Source: a virus (Duplodnaviria; Heunggongvirae; Uroviricota; Caudoviricetes). From it: DNA of 4,364 bases. Both the position numbers and the translations under genes were made by a program. Shown one piece after another: positions 1,478 to 4,364 of this stretch; positions within the stretch are counted from its first letter, which is position 1, and every line of letters begins with the position of its first letter. Under the pieces are notes generated by a model that saw nothing but the letters and a program-made list of their open reading frames with translations, was not told where the DNA came from and made no database searches. Where the stretch lies: IMG/VR virus record IMGVR_UViG_2534681675_000009, one strand, 5' to 3'.

Positions 1478-1487
1478 ATCCCATTTT

Positions 1488-2231
1488 ATGACACAGACTG
1501 AATCAGCGATTCTGGCGCACGCCCGGCGGTGTTCGCCTGCGGAATCGTGCGGCTTCGTGGTGAGAACGCCGGAGGGAGACAGGTATCTTCCCTGCGTGAA
1601 TATCTCCGGTGAGCCGGAGGCGTATTTCCGGATGTCGCCGGAGGACTGGCTGCGGGCAGAAATGCAGGGTGAGATTGTAGCGCTGGTCCACAGCCACCCC
1701 GGTGGACTGCCCTGGCTGAGTGAGGCCGACAGGCGGCTGCAGGTGCAGAGTGATTTGCCGTGGTGGCTGGTCTGCCGGGGGGCGATTCACAAGTTCCGCT
1801 GTGTGCCACATCTTACCGGGCGACGCTTTGAGCACGGGGTGACGGACTGTTACACGCTGTTCCGGGATGCTTACCATCTGGCGGGGATTGAGATGCCGGA
1901 TTTTCATCGCGGGGATGACTGGTGGCGTAACGGCCAGAATCTCTATCTGGATAATCTGGAGGCCACAGGGCTGTATCAGGTGCCGTTGTCAGCGGCGCAG
2001 CCGGGCGATGTGCTGCTGTGCTGTTTTGGTTCATCTGTGCCGAATCATGCCGCCATTTACTGTGGTGACGGCGAGCTGCTGCACCATATTCCTGAACAAC
2101 TGAGCAAACGAGAGAGGTATACCGACAAATGGCAGCGACGCACACACTCCCTCTGGCGTCACCGGGCATGGCACGCATCTGCCTTTACGGGGATTTGCAA
2201 CGATTTGGCCGCCGCATCGACCTTCGTGTGA
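1488..2231 (+). CDS. K: Tail tip assembly protein K, two-domain (N-terminal JAMM/MPN-like metalloprotease motif + C-terminal NlpC/P60-like cysteine peptidase); 247 aa if started at the first ATG after L, with an alternative internal start at 1632 (199 aa)
   Basis: ORF in frame with the track entry 1407..2231; first ATG after the L stop is 1488 (MTQTESAILAHARR...). JAMM-type motif H-x-H-x7-S-x2-D seen directly in VHSHPGGLPWLSEAD (nt 1689-1730). NlpC/P60-like Cys context GVTDCYTLF (Cys at 1848-1850) and downstream His-rich NHAAIYCGDGELLHHIP. No clear Shine-Dalgarno before either start. Confidence 0.85.
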   Translation: MTQTESAILAHARRCSPAESCGFVVRTPEGDRYLPCVNISGEPEAYFRMSPEDWLRAEMQGEIVALVHSHPGGLPWLSEADRRLQVQSDLPWWLVCRGAIHKFRCVPHLTGRRFEHGVTDCYTLFRDAYHLAGIEMPDFHRGDDWWRNGQNLYLDNLEATGLYQVPLSAAQPGDVLLCCFGSSVPNHAAIYCGDGELLHHIPEQLSKRERYTDKWQRRTHSLWRHRAWHASAFTGICNDLAAASTFV

Positions 2232-2770
2232 AAACGGGAGCCGAAGCCATCCGGGCGCTGGCCACGCAGCTACCGTCGTTTCGCCAGAAACTGAATGAGG
2301 GCTGGTATCAGGTGCGCATTGCCGGGCGTGATGCAGGCGAAAACGAATTATCTGCCCGTCTTAATGAGCCGCTGGCAAATGGTGCCGTGATCCACATCGT
2401 ACCGCGTCTGGCGGGTGCCAAAAGTGGCGGTGTTTTTCAGGCAGTGCTGGGTGCGGCGCTGATTGCTACGGCAATCTGGATGCCGGGAATCAGTATCGCT
2501 TTCAGTGACATTCTCTTTTCTATGGGGGCAGCGATGACGCTTGGTGGTGTTGCACAGATGCTGGCCCCTAAACCCAAAACTCCACGTACACAGACAACGG
2601 ATAACGGCAAACAGAACACCTATTTCTCCTCGCTGGATAACATGGTTGCCCAGGGCAATGTCCTGCCTGTTCTGTACGGTGAAATGCGCGTGGGGTCACG
2701 TGTGGCATCTCAGGAGATCAGCACGGCAGATGAAGGGGATGGTGGTCAGGTTGTGGTAATTGGGCGGTAA
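2129..2770 (+). CDS. I: Tail tip assembly protein I, 213 aa
   Basis: ATG at 2129 lies 103 nt inside the 3' end of K in a different frame, an arrangement I recall for lambda K/I. Product begins MAATHTLPLASPGMARICLYGDLQRFGRRIDLRVKTGAEAIRALATQLP... and ends ...DEGDGGQVVVIGR, with a hydrophobic central segment. Stop TAA at 2768-2770. Confidence 0.85.
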   Translation: MAATHTLPLASPGMARICLYGDLQRFGRRIDLRVKTGAEAIRALATQLPSFRQKLNEGWYQVRIAGRDAGENELSARLNEPLANGAVIHIVPRLAGAKSGGVFQAVLGAALIATAIWMPGISIAFSDILFSMGAAMTLGGVAQMLAPKPKTPRTQTTDNGKQNTYFSSLDNMVAQGNVLPVLYGEMRVGSRVASQEISTADEGDGGQVVVIGR

Positions 2771-2842
2771 TATTATTTACTCATGTTCTAACTGATTTAA
2801 TATTTATATCGAATACTGATAATTATTCTGTTGGTTAGCTAT
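2771..2842 (+). promoter_or_regulatory. AT-rich putative promoter region for the inserted lipoprotein gene (exact -35/-10 not resolved)
   Basis: 72-bp strongly AT-rich spacer between the I stop and the lipoprotein ATG. Contains several -10-like hexamers, e.g. GATAAT at 2818-2823, about 20 nt upstream of the ATG. No convincing -35 (only weak TTTAAT/ATTTAA-type matches). Call rests on composition and moron architecture. Confidence 0.3.
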
Positions 2843-3181
2843 ATGAACAAAACGATTTTATTCTGCACGATTATTGCCTTAACAGGATGTAAATCTTTGG
2901 ATTACGTAAAATCCGGAAAACCTGTAATGGAAGGTAATTCATTAAAAAATATTGATGAATTGTCAGGCTGCATATCCAGACAATGGGCTGGTAATGGAAC
3001 ACCTATAACATCCCTTCCTATTGAGAATGGGGTAAGCCTTTTAGTTCCACAGGCTATGGGTGGGTACGATGTTGTGCTTGATATCAAAAAAGCAGGAAAT
3101 GGCAGTAGTTTTACTCTTTATGAACGAGTACCAGCATTAACGCCAAAAATTTTTGCTGATAGTGTTAATGCATGTAAATAA
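2843..3181 (+). CDS. Small predicted outer-membrane lipoprotein of unknown function (moron gene), 112 aa precursor, ~97 aa mature
   Basis: ORF-track entry 2831..3181 begins at TTG; the in-frame ATG at 2843 gives a canonical lipoprotein signal: MNK (n-region), TILFCTIIA (h-region), lipobox L-T-G-C (nt 2879-2890), then Lys at +2. AT-rich with A/T-ending codons, contrasting sharply with flanking tail genes. Two more Cys in the mature part (LSGCIS and NACK). No recognisable SD. Sequence not recognised by me. Confidence 0.7.
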   Translation: MNKTILFCTIIALTGCKSLDYVKSGKPVMEGNSLKNIDELSGCISRQWAGNGTPITSLPIENGVSLLVPQAMGGYDVVLDIKKAGNGSSFTLYERVPALTPKIFADSVNACK

Positions 3182-3205
3182 TAGTTAATCCTGCCGTAAC
3201 TCATG

Positions 3206-3233
3206 AGCCGCCTTTTGGGCGGCTTTGTCGTTT
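3206..3233 (+). terminator. Rho-independent terminator-like hairpin between the lipoprotein gene and J
   Basis: Perfect 7-bp stem AGCCGCC (3206-3212) / GGCGGCT (3218-3224) with 5-nt loop TTTTG, followed by T-rich tract TTGTCGTTT (3225-3233). It starts 25 nt after the lipoprotein stop and ends 15 nt before the J ATG. Oriented for + strand transcripts (no U-tract on the other side). Confidence 0.55.
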
Positions 3234-3247
3234 ATGGAGTGTGAGGA

Positions 3248-4364
3248 ATGGGTAAAGGAAGCAGTAAGGGGCATACCCCGCGTGAAGCGAAGGATAACCT
3301 GAAGTCCACGCAGTTGCTGAGTGTGATCGATGCCATCAGCGAAGGGCCGGTTGAAGGTCCGGTGGATGGATTAAAAAGCGTGCTGCTGAACAGTACGCCG
3401 GTGCTGGACAGTGAGGGGAATACCAATATCTCCGGTGTCACGGTGGTGTTCCGTGCAGGTGAGCAGGAGCAGACACCGCCGGAGGGATTTGAATCCTCCG
3501 GCTCCGAGACGGTGCTGGGTACGGAAGTGAAGTACGACACGCCGATTACCCGGACCATCACGTCTGCAAACATCGACCGTCTGCGCTTTACCTTCGGTGT
3601 GCAGGCACTGGTGGAAACCACCTCAAAGGGGGACCGGAATCCGTCGGAAGTCCGCCTGCTGGTTCAGATACAACGTAACGGTGGCTGGGTGACGGAAAAA
3701 GACATCACCATTAAGGGAAAAACCACCTCACAGTATCTGGCCTCGGTGGTGGTGGGTAACCTGCCGCCGCGCCCGTTCAGTATCCGGATGCGCAGGATGA
3801 CGCCGGACAGCACTACAGACCAGCTGCAGAACAAAACGCTCTGGTCGTCATACACCGAAATCATCGATGTGAAACAGGGCTACCCGAACACGGCACTGGT
3901 CGGTGTACAGGTGGACTCGGAGCAGTTCGGCAGCCAGCAGGTGAGTCGTAATTATCATCTTCGCGGGCGCATTCTGCAGGTGCCGTCGAACTATAACCCG
4001 CAGACGCGGCAATACAGCAGTATCTGGGACGGAACGTTTAAACCGGCATACAGCAACAACATGGCCTGGTGTCTGTGGGATATGCTGACCCATCCGCGCT
4101 ACGGCATGGGGAAACGTCTTGGTGCGGCGGATGTGGATAAATGGGCGCTGTATGTCATCGGCCAGTACTGCGACCAGTCAGTGCCGGACGGCTTTGGCGG
4201 CACGGAGCCGCGCATCACCTGTAATGCTTACCTGACAACACAGCGTAAGGCGTGGGATGTGCTCAGTGATTTCTGCTCGGCGATGCGCTGTATGCCGGTA
4301 TGGAACGGGCAGACGCTGACGTTCGTGCAGGACCGGCCGTCGGATAAGGTGTGGACCTATAACC
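3248..4364 (+). CDS. J: Tail tip host-specificity protein J, N-terminal ~372 codons (3'-partial, runs off the window)
   Basis: ATG at 3248 preceded by GGAG/GAGGA (3236-3247). Open frame to the window end with no stop. Translation MGKGSSKGHTPREAKDNLKSTQLLSVIDAISEGPVEGPVDGLKSVLLNSTPVLDSEGNTN... recognised from memory as a lambda gpJ-type N-terminus. Position immediately after I fits. Confidence 0.9.
   Translation, partial: MGKGSSKGHTPREAKDNLKSTQLLSVIDAISEGPVEGPVDGLKSVLLNSTPVLDSEGNTNISGVTVVFRAGEQEQTPPEGFESSGSETVLGTEVKYDTPITRTITSANIDRLRFTFGVQALVETTSKGDRNPSEVRLLVQIQRNGGWVTEKDITIKGKTTSQYLASVVVGNLPPRPFSIRMRRMTPDSTTDQLQNKTLWSSYTEIIDVKQGYPNTALVGVQVDSEQFGSQQVSRNYHLRGRILQVPSNYNPQTRQYSSIWDGTFKPAYSNNMAWCLWDMLTHPRYGMGKRLGAADVDKWALYVIGQYCDQSVPDGFGGTEPRITCNAYLTTQRKAWDVLSDFCSAMRCMPVWNGQTLTFVQDRPSDKVWTYN

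What the first reader, a model, noticed from the sequence alone, without database searches (positions are those of the whole stretch)
2771..2842. Putative autonomous promoter for the moron, and ambiguous TTG/ATG start
The 72-bp leader is extremely AT-rich, with several -10-like hexamers (e.g. GATAAT 2818-2823) but no clean -35 and no Shine-Dalgarno before the ATG at 2843. The ORF track starts at TTG 2831 (MVSY-MNK...), but only the ATG start gives a canonical short positively charged n-region. Weak or absent SD with an AT-rich leader is common for horizontally acquired morons and may indicate A/U-rich (S1-dependent) initiation or a near-leaderless transcript. It could also make the region a target for H-NS silencing.
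Basis: inference. Interest (0 to 1): 0.4.

Follow-up and report, generated by a model that had tools for sequence, protein, structure and literature searches.

The report
AT-rich leader of a prophage lipoprotein moron
The 72-base AT-rich stretch is the front end of a small foreign gene cassette, encoding an outer-membrane lipoprotein, that sits between tail genes I and J of a lambda-like prophage; translation most likely starts at the ATG, and the sequence cannot show whether the cassette has its own promoter.

Summary
Every sequence statement in the finding checks out. The leader 2771-2842 is 72 nt at 22% GC, against 58% in the flanks. GATAAT lies at 2818-2823, TTG at 2831 and ATG at 2843, and neither start has a usable Shine-Dalgarno.

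The stretch opens a ~430-bp insert placed directly after the stop codon of tail gene I. The insert is absent from lambda and all 109 matching phage records. It is present, always between I and J, in 337 of 5,426 complete E. coli genomes (O104:H4, 042, S88).

It encodes a 112-aa lipoprotein of an uncharacterised phage family (phrog_914) under strong purifying selection. In other enterobacterial prophages the family sits between other tail gene pairs (K|I, M|L, T|H).

ATG 2843 is favoured by homologue N-termini and by PGAP. Either start gives the same mature protein.

The promoter claim is unproven. The best sigma-70-like match is TTTACT-16-TAATAT (2776-2803). It is reached by 28-38% of shuffled leaders. 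Its hexamers are unchanged in the one divergent allele (P about 0.03), whereas GATAAT is changed there.

The downstream hairpin belongs to the lambda backbone, not to the insert.

Verdict: an ordinary moron, a new member of a known kind, of modest interest.

The parts
2129..2770 (+). Tail assembly gene I (lambda I homologue). Its TAA stop at 2768-2770 is the left edge of the insert.
   Evidence: Pfam PF06805 Lambda_tail_I, E=1.3e-23. Aligns with lambda I up to the stop codon.
2771..3204 (+). Inserted cassette (moron) of about 430 bp. It replaces about 20 nt of the lambda I-J spacer.
   Evidence: All 109 matching phage records lack it: 384 bp in the record against 801 bp of query. No DNA match to it among the phage records. 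Alignments with lambda and with the moron-less prophage of strain MS20654. GC 22-37% against 57-58% in the flanks.
2771..2842 (+). The finding itself: a 72-nt AT-rich leader (22% GC) with no Shine-Dalgarno.
   Evidence: Divergence from allele L125 is 17/72, lower than the synonymous divergence of the ORF (0.41); Fisher P=0.024.
2776..2803 (+). Best sigma-70-like candidate (P1): -35 TTTACT 2776-2781, 16-nt spacer, -10 TAATAT 2798-2803. Predicted start near 2810-2812.
   Evidence: Top PWM score on the + strand of the window (10.9), but the next best, inside a gene, scores 10.6 and 28-38% of shuffles reach it. Both hexamers and the spacing are invariant in 99 loci, including divergent L125; P=0.029 to escape 17 substitutions.
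2796..2823 (+). Predicted start near 2830.
   Evidence: PWM score 8.3. GATAAT is AATGAT in L125.
2781..2846 (+). Predicted imperfect AU-rich hairpin of the leader RNA. It pairs 2781-2786 with 2841-2846 (covering the ATG) and 2788-2796 with 2830-2838 (covering the TTG).
   Evidence: The ribosome-binding region is 18% unpaired against 42% in shuffles (2% of shuffles are as low). No two-sided compensatory changes are seen, and the fold is not kept in L125.
2831..2833 (+). Alternative in-frame TTG, the start of the mechanical ORF call.
   Evidence: Invariant in 99 loci, so the comparison is uninformative. No SD.
2843..3181 (+). Lipoprotein gene: 112-aa precursor, stop TAA 3179-3181. ATG 2843 is the favoured start.
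   Evidence: PGAP start in 08-00022, 042, S88, HUSEC2011, EA2 and ETEC4069. phrog_914 matched over its full length, E=7e-33. pN/pS=0.10 against L125. Confident AlphaFold model, pLDDT 84.6.
2843..2890 (+). Signal peptide (MNKTILFCTIIA) plus lipobox L-T-G-C. Cys16 is at 2888-2890 and Lys is at position +2.
   Evidence: Read directly from the sequence. Cys16 is invariant in 36 family members. Outer-membrane sorting is inferred from the +2 rule (no Asp at +2).
3205..3235 (+). Terminator-like hairpin (GAGCCGCC-TTTT-GGGCGGCTT) followed by an interrupted T-run (TGTCGTTTAT). It belongs to the lambda-type I-J spacer, not to the insert.
   Evidence: Best terminator-like site in the window, 9 pairs of which 6 are G-C. 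Folded. A homologous hairpin is present in lambda and in moron-less MS20654.
3248..4364 (+). Tail tip gene J, N-terminal part; it runs off the window.
   Evidence: Pfam PF24801 FNIII-A_GpJ, E=2.6e-41. Good SD, -11.4 kcal/mol.

Best explanation
The 72-nt stretch is the 5' untranslated flank of a horizontally acquired cassette of about 430 bp (a moron). The cassette sits directly after the stop codon of tail gene I and just before the hairpin that lambda-type phages already carry ahead of J.

The cassette encodes a 112-aa precursor of a small lipoprotein from an uncharacterised phage family. The protein is probably outer-membrane and periplasm-facing.

Translation starts at ATG 2843 without a Shine-Dalgarno. 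It presumably relies on the A/U-rich, weakly structured leader and is therefore probably inefficient.

The gene lies inside the late operon, so it is transcribed with the tail genes during lytic growth. This is inferred from the known lambda late transcript.

In addition, I think it most likely that a weak sigma-70 promoter inside the insert gives low-level expression from the repressed prophage. The best candidate is TTTACT 2776-2781 / TAATAT 2798-2803, with a start near 2810 and a 5' UTR of about 32 nt. Such a transcript would be stopped, at least partly, by the resident I-J hairpin at 3205-3235.

Shown here: the insert and its edges, the gene, the missing SD, and the preference for the ATG. 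Inferred: the promoter, the prophage expression and the terminator function.
For: Insert and edges:
- define it.
- It is present, always at I|J, in 337 of 5,426 complete E. coli genomes.

Real gene:
- pN/pS is 0.10 against the divergent allele.
- 34 columns are invariant among 11 homologues.
- 124 cluster representatives were found in 1.84 billion proteins, with Cys16, Cys43 and Cys111 invariant in an alignment of 36.
- The structure model is confident.

ATG start:
- PGAP uses it.
- Homologue N-termini align from it.

No SD.

Constraint on the leader:
- 17/72 differences from L125 against a synonymous divergence of 0.41; Fisher P=0.024.
- P1 hexamers and spacing are untouched in 99 loci; P=0.029.

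Moron logic:
- Deviant GC content, with a promoter and terminator for expression from the repressed prophage, define morons. HK97 gp15, a moron inside the tail operon, is expressed from the prophage (PMC3594210).
- Every family member, at whatever insertion site, is followed by a G+C-rich hairpin with a T-run. That only matters for transcripts not modified by Q.
Against: - The promoter-like score is what an AT-rich 72-mer gives by chance, and the standard scan finds no site.
- AT-rich DNA is intrinsically full of -10-like hexamers (abstract of PMC3688479).
- No promoter-like element is shared across the family. Relatives at K|I have leaders of only 30-32 nt with strong SDs, as expected for late-operon expression alone.
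- The conservation argument rests on a single divergent allele and was made after the candidate was chosen.
- The hairpin downstream belongs to the lambda backbone and exists where there is no moron. It is therefore not evidence for a separate transcription unit here.
- No transcript data were available.
Confidence: 0.5

Rival explanations
1. There is no autonomous promoter. The gene is expressed only as part of the Q-dependent late transcript. The AT-rich leader is simply the foreign flank that arrived with the gene, and the lipoprotein acts late in infection, not in the lysogen.
For: - Promoter-like matches are at chance level.
- K|I relatives have 30-32-nt leaders with no room for a promoter, and strong SDs.
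- The downstream hairpin is a backbone feature.
Against: - The leader diverges more slowly than synonymous sites, and the P1 hexamers are untouched.
- In the long read-through RNA, the start codon of this allele is predicted to be fully paired and has no SD. That is a poor design for a gene expressed only from that RNA.
- Other morons in lambdoid late operons are expressed from the prophage (PMC3594210).
Confidence: 0.3
2. GATAAT 2818-2823 is the -10 element. Transcription starts near 2830, giving a near-leaderless mRNA with 12-13 nt before the ATG.
For: GATAAT matches 5 of 6 consensus positions, and TTTAAT lies 16 nt upstream (score 8.3).
Against: - The -35 matches only 3 of 6.
- GATAAT is AATGAT in L125, and 3 further changes lie just downstream.
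- The predicted start is not at an AUG, so the RNA would not be truly leaderless.
- The score is lower than that of P1 and of several sites inside genes.
Confidence: 0.1
3. Translation starts at TTG 2831, giving a 116-aa precursor (MVSYMNK...).
For: - It is the first start codon of the open frame and is invariant in 99 loci.
- The resulting 19-residue signal peptide would be normal in length.
Against: - It has no SD either (-2.3 kcal/mol).
- TTG is a rare and weak initiator in E. coli (general knowledge).
- Homologues in seven other lineages share nothing upstream of the aligned Met, and there the SD precedes that Met.
- L125 has a radical Ser-to-Lys change among the three extra codons.
- PGAP chooses the ATG.
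Confidence: 0.1

Closest known systems
Morons of lambdoid phages as defined by Juhala/Hendrix, for example the HK97 gene 15 moron between the tail chaperone gene and the tape measure gene (PMC3594210)
   Same: - Extra DNA at an intergenic point of the tail operon.
- Deviant low GC.
- A single small envelope-protein gene followed by a terminator-like hairpin.
- The Enterobacter relative of this gene (L008) sits at the same kind of site as HK97 gene 15, between the tail chaperone gene T and the tape measure gene H.
   Different: - The protein is unrelated to gp15, which is an inner-membrane protein rather than a lipoprotein.
- A promoter is not demonstrable here.
- The hairpin after this copy belongs to the lambda backbone.
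- No phenotype is known.
Cor (phi80/N15) and Llp (T5) superinfection-exclusion lipoproteins
   Same: A small outer-membrane-type lipoprotein encoded next to the receptor-binding tail gene of a siphovirus. Authors commonly invoke the analogy for lipoprotein genes in tail modules (for example PMC4936722).
   Different: - No sequence family match.
- The identical lipoprotein allele occurs with at least three different J receptor-binding ends, 41-64% identical.
- Relatives sit one to four genes away from J.
Lambda lom and bor (late-region accessory genes expressed in lysogens)
   Same: Envelope-protein genes embedded in the late operon of a lambda-type prophage. lom follows J in the same prophages.
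   Different: Unrelated proteins at a different site. Expression of this gene in lysogens is untested.
DUF3568 lipoprotein Flpp3 of Francisella, and the N-terminal domain of BamC (fold level only)
   Different: Sequence identity is only 6-10%, and many unrelated proteins with this common fold score similarly. No functional inference is justified.

Membership tests
Moron (lambdoid phage accessory cassette) | Extra DNA at an intergenic position, absent from closely related phages | tested here: met
   Absent from all 109 matching phage records, from lambda and from the MS20654 prophage. The edges fall at the I stop codon and at the I-J hairpin.
Moron (lambdoid phage accessory cassette) | Base composition different from the surrounding genes | tested here: met
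   Leader 22% GC and ORF 37% GC, against 57-58% in the flanks.
Moron (lambdoid phage accessory cassette) | Own promoter | tested here: inconclusive
   No site at 9 of 12 matches or better. The best pair has 8 of 12 and is reached by 28-38% of shuffles. Its hexamers are conserved in one divergent allele, P=0.029.
Moron (lambdoid phage accessory cassette) | Own terminator | tested here: inconclusive
   A terminator-like hairpin follows at 3205-3235, but it is homologous to the hairpin of moron-less lambda-type spacers. Relatives at other sites each have a hairpin with a T-run just downstream.
Moron (lambdoid phage accessory cassette) | Expressed from the repressed prophage | not testable with these tools
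   No transcript data. dRNA-seq reads exist for O104:H4, but only plasmid start sites were published (PMC5066232).
Bacterial lipoprotein precursor | Positively charged n-region, hydrophobic core, and lipobox [LVI][ASTVI][GAS]C | tested here: met
   M-N-K / TILFCTIIA / L-T-G-C16. The Cys is invariant in 36 family members. Tested by pattern only; no dedicated predictor was available.
Sigma-70 promoter (consensus definition used by the scan tool) | At least 4 of 6 matches in each hexamer and 9 of 12 in all, with a 16-18 nt spacer | tested here: not met
   No hit in 2771-2842. TTTACT/TAATAT gives 4+4 = 8 of 12.
Leaderless mRNA | Transcript 5' end at the A of an AUG start codon | tested here: not met
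   The starts predicted from either candidate -10 (about 2810 or about 2830) lie 32 or 12 nt before the ATG. This is a prediction, not a mapped end.
Cor/Llp-type receptor-blocking lipoproteins | Sequence or fold relationship to Cor or Llp | tested here: not met
Cor/Llp-type receptor-blocking lipoproteins | Tied to the phage's own receptor specificity | tested here: not met
   The same protein (WP_001332187.1) occurs with J C-termini only 63-64% identical (042, S88 and HUSEC2011 against EA2). A second allele (WP_153274582.1, ETEC4069) occurs with a J C-terminus 41-46% identical to those.
Intrinsic terminator | G+C-rich stem-loop followed directly by a U-run | tested here: met
   9 pairs, of which 6 are G-C, then TGTCGTTTAT. 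It is the top site in the window. The U-run is interrupted, so efficiency is uncertain.

The most novel reading that the evidence does not exclude
The leader may act as a switch that depends on where the transcript began.

In the long Q-dependent late RNA, the 5' arm (2781-2796) is present and pairs with the start region (2830-2846). This closes a start codon that already lacks an SD.

A transcript begun at the internal promoter, near 2810, lacks that arm and is open. The lipoprotein would then be made in the lysogen but kept low during tail synthesis.

Other family members show anti-SD pairings of the same kind: TCTTCT/AGGAGA (L003), TCTTTTGT/ACAAGGGA (L004), CCTCC/GGAGG overlapping a -10-like TAACCT (L008), and ATCCCT/AGGGAT (L009, L014).

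Occlusion of the ribosome-binding region is stronger than in shuffles for the window (P=0.02), L003 (0.04) and L014 (0.013). The combined value over 8 lineages is P=0.011.

Against this reading:
- It was formulated after seeing the fold.
- Three lineages show no effect.
- The divergent allele L125 does not keep the pattern.
- There are no two-sided compensatory changes.
Probability: 0.1. Interest if true: 0.5.

Novelty: new member of a known kind. Interest (0 to 1): 0.25.

Why it matters
The promoter and start-codon question is routine annotation detail. It matters little for the protein, because both starts give the same mature lipoprotein.

The surroundings have modest value:
- An unstudied small lipoprotein gene sits in the tail operon of lambda-like prophages in about 6% of complete E. 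coli genomes.
- These include the O104:H4 outbreak lineage, EAEC 042 and the meningitis strain S88.
- Its RefSeq locus tags are out of series in 042, S88, HUSEC2011 and 08-00022, which suggests (not checked) that earlier annotations missed it.
- Its relatives occupy four different tail-gene junctions in other enterobacteria.

If it is expressed in lysogens it is a candidate lysogenic-conversion or phage-exclusion factor, and that is cheap to test.

Tried and rejected
1. **Lambda's I-J spacer as a deletion remnant of this moron.** MAFFT aligned lambda CAAAATGTTTTAT with window 2848-2861. A local-alignment test shows 19% of shuffled queries score as well. Rejected.
2. **H-NS motif.** No match to TCGATAAATT (which I took, from my own knowledge, as the H-NS high-affinity consensus) at up to 2 mismatches in the leader. 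The 3 matches elsewhere in the window are at the chance level.
3. **Known RNA families.** No Rfam match in the window at E up to 1.
4. **Covariation in the leader hairpin.**
   - 96.9% of cells pair, but the structure was derived from one of these sequences.
   - Changes are one-sided only. By my own tally of the per-pair table, about 11 of 17 keep a pair, roughly what transitions give by chance.
5. **Promoter shared across the family.** Best scores in the 200 nt upstream of 12 members range from 7.0 to 11.5, with no common position.
6. **More divergent I|J alleles, to test conservation.** Only one was found (L125), and it is absent from complete E. coli genomes.
7. **Function.**
   - Pfam, NCBIfam and PADLOC gave nothing.
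   - The search of PDB chain sequences gave nothing.
   - The viral fold library gave one uncharacterised Pseudomonas phage protein.
8. **Literature.** The protein accession appears in no held paper. No published start-site map was found for the chromosome of a strain carrying the gene.
9. **Searches that failed for technical reasons.**
   - The afdb50 fold library was not installed.
   - The genome-contig scan returned only one locus.
   - P0006 is not on record.
   - PMC3430355 is not held.

Full report
**What the window is.** It holds the distal tail genes of a lambda-type phage in lambda order.
- The end of H; M (450-779); L (779-1477); K (1488-2231); I (2129-2770); then a small AT-rich ORF; then the start of J at 3248.
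- The finding concerns the 72 nt between the I stop codon and the small ORF.

**Check of the observation.** All coordinates are exact.
- TAA 2768-2770 ends I. The spacer 2771-2842 is 72 nt at 22% GC. GATAAT is at 2818-2823, TTG at 2831 and ATG at 2843.
- The ORF is 37% GC and the flanks 57-58%.
- The consensus scan finds no sigma-70-type site in the spacer.
- The best duplex between the 20 nt upstream and the 16S 3' end is -2.7 kcal/mol for the ATG and -2.3 for the TTG. The same measure gives -9.4 to -14.2 for M, L, I and J.
- The statement 'AT-rich, -10-like hexamers, no clean -35, no SD' is therefore correct.

**What it is.**
- Lambda and 108 other phage records match the flanks but lack about 417 bp in between. 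Nothing in the phage collection matches the insert at the DNA level.
- Alignment with lambda and with a moron-less E. coli prophage (MS20654) puts the left edge directly after the I stop codon. The right edge lies at the 5' side of a hairpin that these phages already carry before J.
- The insert is found in 337 of 5,426 complete E. coli genomes, in every locus examined between I and J. These include O104:H4 (2009EL-2050, HUSEC2011), EAEC 042 and S88.
- In 042, S88, HUSEC2011 and 08-00022 its RefSeq locus tag is out of series. This suggests, but I did not check, that it was added after the first annotation.

**The gene is real.**
- Against the one divergent allele found (L125, from a metagenome), pS is 0.41 and pN is 0.041.
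- The product is a 112-aa lipoprotein precursor: M-N-K, a hydrophobic core, lipobox L-T-G-C16, and Lys at +2. By the +2 rule this predicts outer-membrane sorting.
- It matches phrog_914 (unknown function) over its full length. It matches nothing in Pfam, NCBIfam or PADLOC.
- A profile search of 1.84 billion representatives finds 124 clusters of similar size. Cys16, Cys43 and Cys111 are invariant in an alignment of 36, which suggests a periplasmic disulfide; that is my inference.
- The AlphaFold model is confident (pLDDT 84.6). It is a small alpha/beta fold resembling the DUF3568 lipoprotein Flpp3 and the BamC N-domain, at 6-10% identity. No function follows from this.

**The cassette moves.** Homologues at 48-62% identity were found in prophages of Klebsiella, Kluyvera and Enterobacter and in metagenome contigs.
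- They lie between K and I (L003, L004, L009, L011, L014), between M and L (L010), and between the tail chaperone gene T and the tape measure gene H (L008).
- T|H is the site described for the first named moron, HK97 gene 15 (PMC3594210).
- A more distant relative (31% identity) lies between K and I in the cultured phage Fraca.
- Each copy is AT-poorer... rather, lower in GC than its flanks and is followed by a G+C-rich hairpin with a T-run.

**Start codon.** PGAP uses the ATG in all six genomes inspected.
- All homologues align from that Met as M-x-K, and nothing upstream is shared.
- In the seven other lineages an SD precedes that Met.
- The TTG is invariant in 99 E. coli-type loci, so it cannot be excluded by comparison.
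- The three extra codons carry a Ser-to-Lys change in L125.
- I favour the ATG at roughly 9 to 1.
MVSYMNK... would also be a workable signal peptide. The mature protein is identical either way, so N-terminal mass spectrometry of the processed form cannot decide the question.
- The missing SD is peculiar to this E. coli lineage and is not a family trait.

**Promoter.** The best sigma-70-like arrangement is TTTACT (2776-2781), a 16-nt spacer, and TAATAT (2798-2803).
- It scores 10.9, which is top of the window's + strand. A site inside gene L scores 10.6.
- 28% of mononucleotide and 38% of dinucleotide shuffles of the leader do as well.
- Seven -10-like hexamers are present against 4.8 expected (P=0.19).
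- Sequence alone therefore gives no evidence beyond AT-richness. That fits the point that the -10 hexamer is itself AT-rich, so such DNA is hard for RNA polymerase to read specifically (abstract of PMC3688479).

Comparison adds a little.
- The leader differs from L125 at 17 of 72 positions, fewer than synonymous sites do (Fisher P=0.024).
- None of the 17 differences falls in the 12 hexamer positions of TTTACT/TAATAT (P=0.029).
- This is one comparison, and it was made after the candidate was picked.

Across the family no promoter-like element is shared, and the K|I copies have only 30-32 nt of leader.

**The hairpin downstream (3205-3235).**
- It is the best terminator-like site in the window.
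- It is homologous to the hairpin in lambda (AAACCGCC-TGC-GGGCGGTTT) and in MS20654, which have no moron.
- It cannot be counted as the moron's own terminator, although it would serve as one.

**Likely mechanism.**
- The gene is certainly within the late transcript (inference from lambda).
- I put about even odds on an additional weak promoter in the leader, TTTACT/TAATAT rather than GATAAT, giving low expression in the lysogen. I put about 0.3 on late-only expression.
- Translation without an SD probably relies on the A/U-rich leader (ribosomal protein S1; general knowledge) and is likely weak.

**A side observation.** In the long RNA the leader is predicted to fold so that the ATG is fully paired.
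- The ribosome-binding region is 18% unpaired against 42% in shuffles (P=0.02). It opens to about 52% if the RNA starts at 2811.
- Several relatives have anti-SD pairings, and the combined value over 8 lineages is P=0.011.
- L125 does not keep the pattern, and there is no two-sided covariation.
- I record this as a low-probability idea only.

**Function.** A Cor/Llp-like receptor block is the usual guess for a lipoprotein gene beside the receptor-binding tail gene (for example PMC4936722).
- The identical protein occurs with J C-terminal domains only 63-64% identical. A second allele occurs with one 41-46% identical.
- Function stays open.

**Verdict.** This is an ordinary new member of a known kind.

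Noticed in passing
L003, L004, L009, L011, L014 (K|I); L010 (M|L); L008 (T|H); window 2771-3204 (I|J): The same small lipoprotein gene family occupies four different intergenic junctions of lambdoid tail operons in different enterobacteria. Each copy has lower GC than its flanks and a terminator-like hairpin just downstream. T|H is the site described for the HK97 gene 15 moron.
   Followed up: partly
window 3205-3235; L002 (lambda) about 490-525; L132 (MS20654): Lambda-type phages without any moron carry a conserved terminator-like hairpin in the 60-nt I-J spacer, inside the late operon. The stem differs between lambda and this window by A-T to G-C at one pair and by the loop. I did not establish its role in lambda.
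   Followed up: partly
L003 3971-4000; L004 2969-3000; L008 2970-2995; L009 and L014 leaders: Leaders of several relatives contain a short sequence complementary to their own Shine-Dalgarno: TCTTCT/AGGAGA, TCTTTTGT/ACAAGGGA, CCTCC/GGAGG, ATCCCT/AGGGAT. Occlusion is stronger than in shuffles in some lineages but not all.
   Followed up: partly
L130 (E. coli 042) 9073-9411; L133 (S88) 5074-5412; L134 (HUSEC2011) 5074-5412; L001 (08-00022) 20084-20422: In these four reference genomes the gene carries an out-of-series RefSeq locus tag (for example EC042_RS30590 between RS07240 and RS07245). This suggests the original annotations missed it. It is called only 'hypothetical protein'.
   Followed up: no
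L130, L133, L134, L135, L136 (J genes): Prophages carrying the same lipoprotein allele have J proteins 97-99% identical over the first 800 residues. The last 160 residues, the receptor-binding end, are only 41-64% identical between groups. This shows recombination within J downstream of the moron.
   Followed up: partly
window 1478-1490: Gene K starts at ATG 1488, 10 nt after the L stop codon, also without a recognisable Shine-Dalgarno (TAAATCCCATTTTATG). This is probably translational coupling. A missing SD is therefore not unique to the moron in this window.
   Followed up: no
L125 562-586: In the divergent allele, the A-to-G change homologous to window 2821 creates an extra in-frame ATG eight codons upstream (MIGLLVKYMNK...). 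It is probably not used.
   Followed up: no
L014 1635-2144; L011 4217-5161: Other accessory genes share these tail-operon junctions. A KilA-N domain gene lies just upstream of the lipoprotein gene in L014/L015. An 8xMP-family gene plus a 46-aa ORF lie between I and J in L011.
   Followed up: no
L001 20489-23707: In strain 08-00022, the closest match to the window, J is annotated as a pseudogene lacking its C-terminus. That prophage is probably defective, yet the lipoprotein gene is intact.
   Followed up: no
window 3149-3178, minus strand: One of the only two promoter-like hits of the consensus scan (TTTACA-18-AAAAAT) lies at the 3' end of the moron and points antisense into it. The overall count (2 found, 2.6 expected) is at chance.
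   Followed up: no
window 2969-2971 and 3173-3175 (Cys43, Cys111): Besides the lipidated Cys16, two further cysteines are invariant in 36 family members. This suggests a conserved disulfide, as expected for a periplasm-facing protein. I did not check it in the model coordinates.
   Followed up: no
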